A stretch of DNA of 64,000 nt from a virus (IMGVR_UViG_3300028886_000037:1-64000); one strand, 5' to 3'; counted from the stretch's first letter, positions 59,546 through 60,983 are shown. Notes: generated by a model not told the origin, from the letters alone. Translations and numbers: made by a program.

Positions 59546-59682
59546 AGGTTTTACCTCTTATATCTCTAGTTTATTTATACTCTCATGTTCAAAGAAAAAA
59601 ATCATATACTTAGCAAATTGATACGAATTTGCACTAAAAATAACAAAAAAATCAAAAATAAACACGTATAAATATAATATAG

Positions 59683-59784
59683 ATTATTGGATTGGACTGG
59701 AATCTAATAATAGGAAACGAATTTAAAAAGGCTAGGAATAGTCTTAAATCCTATTGGTACCAGTCCTACTAATAGGATTTTTTT
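59683..59784 (+). promoter_or_regulatory. Structured tnpB leader (three hairpins, complementary loops) downstream of TATAAATA at 59667-59674
   Basis: Loops GGACTGG and CCAGTCC are exact complements; the last stem covers the RBS and is followed by a T-run. Confidence 0.7.
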
Positions 59785-59786
59785 GT

Positions 59787-60983
59787 ATGAAGAAAGGACT
59801 AGAAGTAAGGTTATACCCATCTAAGGAACAAAGAGTACTCATTGACAGAACTCTAGGTTGTTCTCGTTTTGTGTATAATCGTGTTCTAGCCTTAAAGAAA
59901 GAACTATGGGAAGACTATAAGCTATCATTCAATCCCAACCTGAAGAGTTTTAAGGAAGAATGGAAATTTCTGACGAAAGTACCAAGTCAGGCATTAGCAA
60001 ACAGTTATGTGGATTGCATGACTGCTTATAATAACTGGTTCAATTCACTAAAAGGAAAATCTAAAGCTAAACAATCATACCCAAAGTTCCATAAGAAAGG
60101 ACAGAAAGACTCCTTTAGGATTGCTGCTACAAAGACTTCTAAAGGCTATGATGTAAGGATAGAGGACTATGAACATATTAAAGTCCCAAAGTTAGGTGCA
60201 GTTAAATTCCGAAACTATAATGGAATAGACTGGTCTAAAGTTCACATCTATAACATAACGATTAAAAAGACTCCTACTAATAAGTATTTTGCTAGTCTTT
60301 GCTGTGAACTTCCAGAACCTGAATATGTAGAGCCTAAATTTAATGCTTGTGGGTTTGATCTTGGAATTAAAGACTTTGCTATCTTTGATTACGGCGAAGT
60401 AATTGAAAATCCAAAGTATTATAGAAAGACTGAATATAAGATAAAGAAAACACAAAGAGTTTTAAGCAAATGTGTAAAGTTTAGCAAGAACTACAAGAAA
60501 GTCAAGTTAAAACTCGCTAAACTACACGAAAAGATTAGGAATCAAAAAAAGAACTTTCAACACAAATGGTCAAGGAAAATAGTGAACGAAAACCAAGTCA
60601 TTGTTTCCGAAGACTTGAATGTTAAAGGCATGTTGAAGAACCATAAACTTGCAAAATCTATACAAGATGCAAGTTTTAGTTCATTCTTCAATATGATAGC
60701 ATACAAATCTAACGAACAACATAGACAGTATGTAAAGATAGGAACATTCTATCCATCGTCTAAGTTATGTCACTGTTGCGGATTCAAGTACAAAGGTCTA
60801 AAACTCGAAGAACGCTTTTGGACTTGCCCACAATGCGGAACATACTTAGACCGTGATGAGAATGCGGCAATCAATATACTAAACGAAGGTCTTAGAATTT
60901 TAAGTAGAAATACCGTAGGAAGTACGGGAAACGATAAATCGTTTAAGCCTGTTGATACTGATTTGAGTACAAACCTTGAGTAG
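59787..60983 (+). CDS. tnpB: RNA-guided endonuclease TnpB
   Basis: RLYPS...GCSRFVYN HTH; RuvC-I GFDLG, RuvC-II SEDL, zinc finger CHCC/CPQC, RuvC-III DRDENAAINIL; catalytic D-E-D intact. Confidence 0.97.
   Translation: MKKGLEVRLYPSKEQRVLIDRTLGCSRFVYNRVLALKKELWEDYKLSFNPNLKSFKEEWKFLTKVPSQALANSYVDCMTAYNNWFNSLKGKSKAKQSYPKFHKKGQKDSFRIAATKTSKGYDVRIEDYEHIKVPKLGAVKFRNYNGIDWSKVHIYNITIKKTPTNKYFASLCCELPEPEYVEPKFNACGFDLGIKDFAIFDYGEVIENPKYYRKTEYKIKKTQRVLSKCVKFSKNYKKVKLKLAKLHEKIRNQKKNFQHKWSRKIVNENQVIVSEDLNVKGMLKNHKLAKSIQDASFSSFFNMIAYKSNEQHRQYVKIGTFYPSSKLCHCCGFKYKGLKLEERFWTCPQCGTYLDRDENAAINILNEGLRILSRNTVGSTGNDKSFKPVDTDLSTNLE

What the first reader, a model, noticed from the sequence alone, without database searches (positions are those of the whole stretch)
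59667..59790. Kissing-loop RNA leader controlling tnpB
Seen: directly after a late promoter are hairpin 1 (ATTATTGGATT / loop GGACTGG / AATCTAATAAT, 59683-59711) and a GNRA-capped hairpin (AAGGCTA-GGAA-TAGTCTT, 59728-59745). Hairpin 3 (AAATCCTATTGGTA / loop CCAGTCC / TACTAATAGGATTT, 59746-59780) follows. The two 7-nt loops are perfect reverse complements and are the only GC-rich bases in an AT-rich stretch. Hairpin 3 buries the AGGA RBS and is followed by a T-run, like an attenuator. Inference: a cis-regulatory pseudoknot or kissing element that limits nuclease expression, or a separate small RNA.
Basis: partly seen in the sequence, partly recalled or inferred. Interest (0 to 1): 0.7.

Follow-up and report, generated by a model that had tools for sequence, protein, structure and literature searches.

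The report
Kissing-loop RNA leader of phage tnpB
The stretch in front of this jumbo phage's tnpB nuclease gene is a real, conserved folded RNA leader. The tips of its first and third hairpins pair with each other through a 7-letter code that differs from copy to copy. It most likely keeps the selfish nuclease poorly expressed, and it matches no catalogued RNA family.

Summary
A TATAAATA late promoter (59667-59674) is followed by hairpin 1 (59683-59711), a tetraloop hairpin (59728-59745) and hairpin 3 (59746-59780). Hairpin 3 holds the AGGA ribosome-binding site and is followed by a T-run and the tnpB ATG (59787).

I found 30 distinct homologous leaders in viral contigs, metagenomes and two MAG bins. 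In 28 of them the 7-nt loop of hairpin 3 is a perfect Watson-Crick complement of the hairpin 1 loop. There are 18 different loop words and no G-U pair among them. All three stems also covary (96.9% paired, 17 of 27 pairs with double changes).

The loops diverge about as fast as synonymous sites of tnpB, while the rest of the leader is three times more conserved. The leader sits in front of TnpB lineages only 38-88% identical to each other. Copies on one contig carry different codes.

Best reading: a cis-acting, late-transcribed leader whose loop-loop kiss locks a hairpin that hides the ribosome-binding site and looks like a terminator, restraining TnpB. That function is inferred, not shown. 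A trans-acting or self-associating small RNA with a private address code is not excluded.

No Rfam family or paper matches. Earlier notes of this scan flagged the same design in other phage genomes.

The parts
59667..59674 (+). Element-borne T4-type late promoter motif TATAAATA. The inferred transcript start is about 59680-59682.
   Evidence: The motif is nearly invariant in the homologous leaders and is enriched 20-fold in the window. The start-site position is inferred from what is known of T4 late promoters; it was not measured.
59683..59711 (+). Hairpin 1: an 11-bp stem with 7-nt loop GGACTGG (59694-59700), at the 5' end of the predicted late transcript.
   Evidence: Fold. In the stem, 8 of 11 pairs show double changes across 19 leaders. 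The loop is complementary to the hairpin 3 loop in 28 of 30 leaders.
59712..59727 (+). A/U-rich single-stranded linker. It begins with AGGA, so with the last bases of hairpin 1 it forms a second AAUAGGA box.
   Evidence: Alignments. The spacing between the two loops is held at 51-59 nt.
59728..59745 (+). Hairpin 2: a 7-bp stem capped by GGAA. About three quarters of homologues carry a GNRA tetraloop.
   Evidence: 4 of 6 modelled pairs show double changes. Loops seen are GAAA, GUAA, GCAA and GGAA, with GUAU or A/U loops in a minority.
59746..59780 (+). Hairpin 3: a 14-bp stem with 7-nt loop CCAGTCC (59760-59766). Its 3' arm holds the AGGA ribosome-binding site (59774-59777).
   Evidence: Fold and terminator-like scan hit. 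100% of cells are paired and 5 of 10 pairs show double changes. The loop is exactly 7 nt in every leader.
59778..59786 (+). T-run (seven T) and a short spacer before the start codon.
   Evidence: GGATTTTT is invariant in 19 leaders. The gap from AGGA to the ATG is 7-13 nt.
59787..60983 (+). tnpB, encoding an RNA-guided RuvC nuclease of 398 aa. It ends at a TAG where relatives read CAG and run on to about 420 aa.
   Evidence: Pfam hits to HTH_OrfB_IS605, OrfB_IS605 and Cas12f1-like_TNB. The TAG/CAG difference is seen.
59579..59666 (+). Left end of the element upstream of the promoter. Relatives carry a subterminal hairpin here that resembles the right-end hairpin; it is degraded in this copy.
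   Evidence: Conservation starts right after TTTAT (59574-59578). The left-end and right-end hairpins resemble each other in relatives.
60850..61059 (+). Conserved 3' region and right end, ending in TTCAT. This is the presumed guide-RNA (omega RNA) scaffold, and the flank from 61060 would be the guide.
   Evidence: Conservation stops sharply after TTCAT in all homologues, and covarying hairpins lie inside the region. The role as an omega RNA is inferred from what is known of the IS200/IS605 family.

Best explanation
This is the 5' leader RNA (about 105 nt) of a tnpB-only IS200/IS605-type element that lives in T4-like jumbo phages.

The element's own late promoter starts the transcript at the foot of hairpin 1. 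The RNA folds into three hairpins. The 7-nt apical loops of hairpins 1 and 3 form a 7-bp Watson-Crick loop-loop helix, an intramolecular kiss, which ties the 5' end to hairpin 3.

Hairpin 3 buries the Shine-Dalgarno AGGA. With its U-run it also looks like an intrinsic terminator only 6 nt before the AUG. The likely result is that most late transcripts stop there or cannot be translated, so the selfish nuclease is made late and at a low level.

Shown here: the fold, the kiss, its strand specificity, its conservation and its modular link to tnpB.

Inferred: transcription from the motif, termination, translational repression, and that the kiss stabilises the closed state.

Unexplained: why the loop code turns over so fast and differs between copies.
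For: Structure. The three hairpins are the centroid fold, with z = -3.56 on the + strand only. Across 19 distinct leaders, 96.9% of cells pair, 17 of 27 pairs carry double changes, 0 of 500 shuffles reach this, and sliding the partners collapses the pairing.

The kiss.
- The hairpin 3 loop is always 7 nt.
- It is 7 of 7 complementary to the hairpin 1 loop in 28 of 30 leaders, through 18 different words.
- A more diverged leader (L277) keeps a 9-nt loop-loop match with unrelated sequence.
- The sequences flanking the two loops are unrelated, so the complementarity is confined to the loops.
- None of the 196 kissing pairs is G-U, while by my count about 6% of stem cells are.
- The loops are GC-rich, with predicted duplex energies of -6.6 to -11.4 kcal/mol.

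RNA on the + strand. The 29 G-U stem cells (my count) would be A-C mismatches on the other strand. The promoter motif, the promoter-to-hairpin-1 spacing, AGGA and the T-run are all conserved.

Link to tnpB. Every confirmed leader precedes a TnpB-type gene or, in L112, a RuvC-like gene. The same leader precedes TnpBs only 39% identical to each other (L101 and L103).

Precedent. IS200 represses its transposase with an SD-sequestering 5'UTR stem-loop (PMC4513863). T-even homing endonuclease genes use RBS-sequestering hairpins (PMC2988022).
Against: - No expression, termination or translation data exist for this RNA.
- Hairpin 3 alone already buries the SD, so the need for a kiss in simple repression is not obvious.
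- The U-run is short and follows GGA. Its first three U's pair with AAA (59746-59748) at the foot of the stem in this copy, so termination may be weak.
- A purely structural, cis-only role does not explain why the loops change about as fast as synonymous sites (0.52 against 0.43 differences per site) while the rest of the leader is conserved (0.16-0.18).
- It also does not explain why no G-U intermediates are seen.
- A release mechanism that would allow TnpB to be made at all is not identified.
Confidence: 0.55

Rival explanations
1. The leader ends at hairpin 3 and is a stand-alone small RNA that works in trans. Its two complementary loops would let it kiss the leaders of other molecules of the same code. 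The variable 7-nt word would be a private address.
For: - A terminator-like hairpin with a conserved U-run sits right after the structure.
- The loop code is hypervariable against a conserved backbone. L003 and L016 differ at 3% of unpaired leader positions but at 6 of 7 loop positions.
- Copies on one contig carry different codes on the two contigs where both copies keep an intact kiss (G001 C120 and C13). On C35 one copy is a mismatched hybrid.
- Strict Watson-Crick pairing without G-U would fit a need for discrimination between codes.
- L171 looks like a recombinant with hairpin 1 of one code and hairpin 3 of another, and it has lost the kiss.
Against: - Both partners lie 51-59 nt apart on the same RNA, so the cis kiss should outcompete any trans contact.
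- With about 18 codes in circulation, two random copies would differ anyway, so the same-contig observation carries no statistical weight.
- No third site complementary to the loops exists in or around the elements.
- No expression data are available.
Confidence: 0.22
2. The structure mainly protects the RNA. A 5'-terminal hairpin locked into a compact fold would shield the late tnpB or guide-RNA transcript from host or phage ribonucleases. Any effect on translation would be secondary.
For: Hairpin 1 begins within about 2 nt of the inferred transcript start in nearly all leaders. The fold is compact, with a mostly GNRA-capped middle hairpin.
Against: This does not explain the invariant burial of AGGA, the U-run placed 6-13 nt before the AUG, or the rapid turnover of the code.
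Confidence: 0.1
3. The hairpins act in single-stranded DNA as part of the transposon's left end. A Y1 (TnpA) transposase would recognise them during excision or integration, rather than the RNA being functional.
For: IS200/IS605 elements transpose as single-stranded DNA and use subterminal hairpins on the top strand, which is the sense strand here. G-T pairs are also tolerated in DNA hairpins.
Against: - A separate left-end hairpin that resembles the right-end hairpin lies upstream of the promoter. The right end has no counterpart of hairpins 1-3.
- No Y1 transposase is encoded in this 98%-complete phage genome.
- The structure starts at the inferred transcript start and ends at the SD, U-run and AUG.
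- The same leader is joined to different TnpB lineages and different element ends.
Confidence: 0.06
4. The loop complementarity is a by-product of an inverted duplication kept alike by template switching or gene conversion, with no selection for pairing.
For: The stems of hairpins 1 and 3 resemble each other in each subfamily. Cross-pairing of their arms is somewhat better for cognate than for non-cognate leaders (-5.6 against -4.1 kcal/mol, permutation p = 0.001; relatedness not controlled).
Against: - The inverted identity is confined to exactly the 7 loop bases. The loop-proximal stem bases are unrelated in the inverted sense, so a copying tract would need to be exactly 7 nt in at least 18 independent cases.
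- The G-U pairs sit on the same arm in both hairpins, which shows direct rather than inverted similarity of the stems.
- L277 has the same design with unrelated sequences.
Confidence: 0.03

Closest known systems
IS200 tnpA 5'UTR (same IS200/IS605 superfamily): left-end terminator plus an SD-sequestering stem-loop (PMC4513863)
   Same: It is a transposon-borne leader in which a stable stem-loop hides the Shine-Dalgarno sequence of the element's own gene. It combines this with a terminator-type hairpin in the left end to keep expression very low.
   Different: In IS200 the regulated gene is the transposase tnpA, the terminator lies upstream of the promoter, and the extra control comes from an antisense sRNA and Hfq. 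There is no loop-loop kiss, no variable code, no late promoter and no sequence similarity.
RBS-sequestering hairpins of T-even homing endonuclease genes such as I-TevI, I-TevII, I-TevIII, segB and mobE (PMC2988022)
   Same: These are selfish nuclease genes in T4-type phages, expressed late, with the ribosome-binding site locked in a stable hairpin just upstream of the AUG.
   Different: There the late promoter lies inside the structure, so late transcripts lack the 5' arm and are translatable. Here the late promoter lies upstream of all three hairpins, so the late transcript carries the full closed structure plus a kiss.
Antisense kissing-loop control of plasmids and transposons: ColE1 RNA I/RNA II, R1 CopA/CopT, IS10 RNA-OUT/RNA-IN (established knowledge)
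   Same: Fully paired loops of about 7 nt nucleate the RNA-RNA recognition. In the plasmid systems, loop sequence defines specificity, and loop changes create new compatible types.
   Different: Those partners are antisense transcripts of one DNA segment acting in trans, so a single mutation changes both loops at once. Here both loops are on the same sense RNA and are encoded separately, so every change needs two mutations.
   Same: A phage or viral RNA carries two complementary loops, or a self-complementary one, and their pairing covaries between relatives while the sequence drifts.
   Different: Those kisses are intermolecular and build a multimer for a packaging motor or genome dimer. The pRNA loops pair over 4 nt, and there is no link to a nuclease gene, SD or terminator. 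Multimerisation of this leader is untested.
Kissing-hairpin leaders noted earlier in this scan in other phage genomes (e1-5483202, e1-5483205, e1-5651103, e1-3275132). These are AI notes, not published.
   Same: They describe the same design: a 5' hairpin, a tetraloop hairpin, then a terminator-like hairpin with a complementary 7-nt loop just before a tnpB or other mobile nuclease gene.
   Different: They concern other genomes and I did not re-check them.

Membership tests
Any Rfam 15 family | A covariance-model match at or near the family's gathering score | tested here: not met
   The best hits on the leader score 14-20 bits against gathering scores of 49-60, and they are to unrelated families such as mir-454 and Phe_leader.
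IS200/IS605-type tnpB element (genomic context of the leader) | A TnpB protein with HTH, OrfB_IS605 (RuvC) and zinc-ribbon/TNB domains | tested here: met
   All three Pfam domains match, with E-values from 1e-15 to 1e-27.
IS200/IS605-type tnpB element (genomic context of the leader) | Similar subterminal hairpins at the left and right ends, and sharp conserved boundaries | tested here: met
   Relatives share a hairpin of about 30 nt at both ends. Conservation starts after TTTAT and stops after TTCAT. The left-end hairpin is degraded in the window copy.
IS200/IS605-type tnpB element (genomic context of the leader) | A Y1 (HUH) transposase TnpA in the element or the genome | tested here: not met
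   There is no PF01797 match in the 98%-complete phage genome, while the control genomes give hits. The element is tnpB-only.
IS200/IS605-type tnpB element (genomic context of the leader) | A guide (omega) RNA overlapping the 3' end of tnpB and the right end | tested here: inconclusive
   A conserved, covarying structured 3' region ends exactly at the right boundary. No RNA data or model match is available.
Intrinsic (Rho-independent) terminator or attenuator | A stable hairpin directly followed by a U-run on the transcribed strand | tested here: met
   The scan reports a 14-pair stem, a 7-nt loop and a T-rich tail. The T-run is conserved.
Intrinsic (Rho-independent) terminator or attenuator | Transcripts actually end there, and an alternative fold can prevent this | not testable with these tools
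   No expression data are available. The only alternative fold found is about 11 kcal/mol weaker in its arm pairing.
T-even homing-endonuclease type translational control | The ribosome-binding site is sequestered in a hairpin upstream of the AUG | tested here: met
   AGGA lies in the 3' arm of hairpin 3. The CC/GG foot is invariant and 100% paired.
T-even homing-endonuclease type translational control | The late promoter lies inside the hairpin, so late transcripts lack the inhibitory arm | tested here: not met
   TATAAATA lies 75 nt upstream of the CCTAT foot of hairpin 3 (59750) and before hairpin 1. There is no second motif inside the leader.
Antisense kissing-loop control (ColE1, R1 or IS10 type) | Complementary hairpin loops that nucleate the pairing | tested here: met
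   The loop-loop match is 7 of 7 Watson-Crick in 28 of 30 leaders.
Antisense kissing-loop control (ColE1, R1 or IS10 type) | The partners are separate, convergently transcribed antisense RNAs | tested here: not met
   Both loops lie on the same sense strand, 51-59 nt apart. The promoter scan found no - strand promoter within the leader.
   Complementary loops would permit it, but cis pairing is equally possible. This needs native gels or cross-linking.

The most novel reading that the evidence does not exclude
The variable 7-nt loop pair is a private address code. Leader RNAs, released at hairpin 3 or as part of the mRNA, would recognise only molecules carrying the same code. Each tnpB copy in a phage genome would then sense and limit its own dosage, or assemble only with its own kind. 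New codes would arise under diversifying selection to escape cross-control by sister copies. That would be an RNA-based incompatibility or immunity system among selfish RNA-guided nucleases.
Probability: 0.2. Interest if true: 0.88.

Novelty: new variant of a known kind. Interest (0 to 1): 0.76.

Why it matters
TnpB is among the most abundant prokaryotic genes and is the ancestor of Cas12. How its expression is controlled, especially inside viruses, is almost unstudied.

This work defines an uncatalogued structured RNA with unusually clean comparative support: 18 compensated versions of a 7-bp loop-loop helix. It is attached as a movable module to several TnpB lineages in T4-like jumbo phages.

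It offers a natural set of orthogonal 7-nt kissing codes on one conserved scaffold, which may be useful for RNA engineering. It also makes a simple question testable: does a selfish nuclease use a tertiary RNA lock, and possibly a copy-specific code, to hold itself down?

If the code acts in trans, it would be a new kind of incompatibility system between transposons.

Tried and rejected
1. Alternative nested rod fold. For about half of the leaders the nested minimum-energy fold makes the two loops a long-range helix, pairs the hairpin 1 arms with the hairpin 3 arms and partly frees the SD. I rejected it as the ground state. Its arm pairing averages -5.6 kcal/mol against -16.5 for the three-hairpin form. 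It wins only because the folding program cannot score a kiss. The inner-stem covariation supports the local hairpins. It remains possible as a transient state.

2. Weak anti-sequestor helix. AAUAG(G) after hairpin 1 can pair with (C)CUAUU of hairpin 3. It is present everywhere, but it is only 5-7 A/U-rich pairs across a 35-nt loop, so I did not count it as support.

3. A third site complementary to the loops, such as the guide, a flank or the omega RNA region. No consistent site exists within -400 to +1700 nt of any element.

4. Loop code tied to the insertion site. This is rejected because an identical leader sits at two different sites (L003 and L009).

5. Inverted duplication or template switching as the cause of the complementarity. 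See the rival explanations; rejected on tract boundaries.

6. Rfam at relaxed thresholds gave nothing.

7. Literature searches for TnpB with kissing, loop-loop, late promoter or jumbo phage gave nothing relevant.

8. The leader model found no match in 40-odd more distant TnpB loci (at most 46% identity) or in L022 (62%).

It returned 98 new loci, none of which forms hairpin 3.

11. The neck-like flanking protein has no match among deposited phages, so the phage could not be placed.

Full report
**What is in the window.** The finding lies in an AT-rich island (GC about 33%, roughly 59.55-61.06 kb) inside a phage genome of about 49% GC. The record is a 248-kb, 98%-complete viral contig. TATAAATA, the T4-type late promoter motif, occurs 16 times in the window against 0.8 expected.

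The island carries one gene on the + strand, tnpB (59787-60983). Its product matches HTH_OrfB_IS605, OrfB_IS605 and the Cas12f1-like TNB domain. The island sits between two - strand phage genes: 59126-59545, and a weakly neck-like gene at 61064-62008.

- late promoter motif, 59667-59674;
- hairpin 1, 59683-59711, loop GGACTGG;
- hairpin 2, 59728-59745, loop GGAA;
- hairpin 3, 59746-59780, loop CCAGTCC;
- AGGA, 59774-59777, in the 3' arm of hairpin 3;
- a seven-T run, then the ATG at 59787.

The three hairpins are the centroid fold of the + strand (z = -3.56). The - strand is unremarkable (z = -1.52). Hairpin 3 with its T-run is called terminator-like by the consensus scan.

**Homologues.** Protein-guided and pattern-guided scans gave 30 distinct leaders. 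They came from three sources:
- viral contigs;
- metagenomes;
- genome bins, with a covariance model (R1) run over all fetched DNA and over the whole bins.

On a model-based alignment of 19 leaders, 96.9% of stem cells pair and 17 of 27 pairs carry changes on both sides. No shuffle out of 500 reaches this. Sliding the 3' partners by one to three columns drops pairing to 27-50%. Hairpin 2 keeps a GNRA tetraloop in about three quarters of leaders, while its stem changes completely in some.

**The kiss.**
- In every leader the hairpin 3 loop is exactly 7 nt.
- In 28 of 30 leaders it is a perfect Watson-Crick complement of 7 nt in the hairpin 1 loop, through 18 different words. Examples are GGACTGG, GGACGAG, GGGTCAG, ATAGCGG, ATTACGG and CTGGCAC; neighbouring words differ by single compensated steps.
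- Shuffling the hairpin 3 loops among the distinct codes gives 68 +/- 7 complementary positions (maximum 95), against 136 of 140 observed.
- The complementarity stops at the loop boundaries. The loop-proximal stem bases of the two hairpins are unrelated in the inverted sense, which argues against a copying artefact.
- None of the 196 kissing pairs is G-U, whereas about 6% of stem cells are (my count).
- The loops are the GC-rich part of the leader, with predicted duplex energies of -6.6 to -11.4 kcal/mol.
- A more diverged leader (L277) has the same layout with unrelated sequence and a 9-nt loop-loop match.
- As a control, only 1 of 47 upstream regions of more distant TnpB genes shows any loop-loop match of 6 nt or more.

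The two exceptions look like damaged copies. L171 combines the hairpin 1 code of one type with the hairpin 3 code of another (5 of 7 pairs) and also has a stem mismatch. L166 has 4 of 7 pairs and a mutated SD arm.

**RNA rather than duplex DNA.** The 29 G-U stem cells lie on the + strand and would be A-C mismatches on the other strand. The promoter motif, its spacing to hairpin 1 (the motif ends 16-23 nt before the hairpin 1 loop, mostly 19), the buried AGGA and the U-run are all conserved. This fits a transcript that begins at hairpin 1 and meets the ribosome at hairpin 3.

A role as single-stranded transposon DNA is unlikely, for three reasons:
- A separate left-end hairpin resembling the right-end hairpin lies upstream of the promoter.
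- No Y1 transposase is encoded in this genome.
- The leader is joined to different element bodies.

**A module, and a fast-changing code.**
- The leader precedes TnpB lineages that are only 38-88% identical to one another. In L112 it precedes a 431-aa protein with RuvC-like motifs, no Pfam hit and a weak 'transposase' PHROG match.
- L101 and L103 share nearly the same leader, but their TnpBs are 39% identical.
- Many TnpB relatives at 38-46% identity from other environments lack the leader.
- The same leader occurs at two different insertion sites, so the code is not tied to the target.
- Among ten close relatives, the loops differ at 0.52 of positions on average. Four-fold degenerate sites of tnpB differ at 0.43, stems at 0.18 and unpaired leader positions at 0.16. 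L003 and L016 differ at 3% of unpaired positions but at 6 of 7 loop positions.
- Loop divergence does not track tnpB divergence. The window and L017 share a code despite 0.48 synonymous-site divergence.
- Two genome bins hold 8 and 3 copies. Three contigs carry two copies each, and the two copies never share a code, although one C35 copy (L171) is the mismatched hybrid. With 18 codes in circulation this has no statistical weight on its own.

**Mechanism.** I commit to a cis-acting leader (confidence 0.55). Late transcription starts at the foot of hairpin 1 and the RNA folds into three hairpins. The loop-loop helix ties hairpin 1 to hairpin 3. Hairpin 3 hides the SD and, with the U-run, stops or silences most transcripts.

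This matches how IS200 restrains its transposase (PMC4513863). It also matches how T-even homing endonuclease genes are kept quiet (PMC2988022). One clear difference from the T-even case is that the late promoter here lies upstream of the whole structure, so the late RNA carries the lock instead of escaping it.

An alternative rod-like fold that would free the SD exists on paper. It is about 11 kcal/mol weaker in its arm pairing, so I treat it at most as a transient state.

The cis model does not explain the speed of code turnover or the absence of G-U intermediates. These fit better with selection for specificity. I therefore keep a trans-acting or self-associating small RNA with a private address code as the main rival (0.22) and as the most novel reading.

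**Known or new.** No Rfam family matches. Full-text searches found no paper on a structured or kissing tnpB leader. Earlier AI notes of this scan describe the same design in other phage genomes. They agree with this report but are not independent evidence.

I class this as a new variant of a known kind. It is a transposon or homing-nuclease leader that sequesters the ribosome-binding site, with a new and unusually well-supported tertiary lock and a hypervariable code.

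Noticed in passing
window 59572-59579 (- strand TATAAATA) and 59574-59578 (TTTAT); right end at 61055-61059 (TTCAT): Conservation among elements begins right after TTTAT and ends after TTCAT. The left flank in most loci is the reverse complement of a late promoter serving the neighbouring - strand gene. The element therefore seems to use TTTAT/TTCAT-type end motifs and often lands in late promoters without removing them. Some copies in bin G001 have only TTTAT- or TTCAT-like flanks, not the full promoter.
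   Followed up: partly
window 60981-60983: This copy of tnpB stops at TAG where all close relatives read CAG and continue for about 20 more codons through the right-end RNA scaffold (398 aa against about 420 aa).
   Followed up: partly
window 59596-59630: The left-end subterminal hairpin, which is well formed in relatives and resembles the right-end hairpin, is degraded in the window copy. With no TnpA in the genome, this copy is probably immobile by transposition.
   Followed up: partly
window 59580-59595 with 59620-59632, and equivalents in L004, L006, L009: The roughly 10 variable bases after the left boundary pair with bases just past the left-end hairpin. They covary in several loci, for example GCGGAAA with TTTCCGC. 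This looks like an outer stem around the left-end hairpin, of unknown role.
   Followed up: no
G001 contigs C120, C35, C13, C123, C172; G002 contigs C41, C72, C19 (loci L164-L174): Two bacterial MAG bins (labelled Paludibacteraceae and Coprovivens) hold 8 and 3 copies of the late-promoter leader plus tnpB. These contigs are probably jumbo-phage DNA binned with bacteria, and the element has multiplied within them.
   Followed up: partly
L171 (G001 C35:68297-68437): This leader has the hairpin 1 loop of one code type and the hairpin 3 loop of the type carried by a sister copy in the same bin, giving 5 of 7 pairs. It looks like a recombinant between co-resident copies.
   Followed up: partly
L112:5594-6886 (- strand): A 431-aa protein sits behind a bona fide leader. 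It has RuvC-like motifs (GIDMN, AIEDL, NPAYSS), no zinc ribbon, no Pfam hit and only a weak PHROG 'transposase' match. It may be a very divergent TnpB-like nuclease.
   Followed up: partly
L277:1500-1640 (- strand; G005 C1:7484-7633): This diverged leader in front of another TnpB lineage has larger loops that share a 9-nt complement (TTCGCCTTC with GAAGGCGAA). The design therefore reaches beyond what model R1 detects.
   Followed up: partly
G000:C1:169207-169920 (- strand; outside the window): A second, distant TnpB-like match (27% identity) lies inside a 560-aa open frame elsewhere in the same phage genome. It has no copy of the leader.
   Followed up: no
window 59562-59580 and 59666-59684: The two divergent late promoters, one for the host gene and one for the element, form a 19-nt inverted repeat that is 84% complementary.
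   Followed up: no
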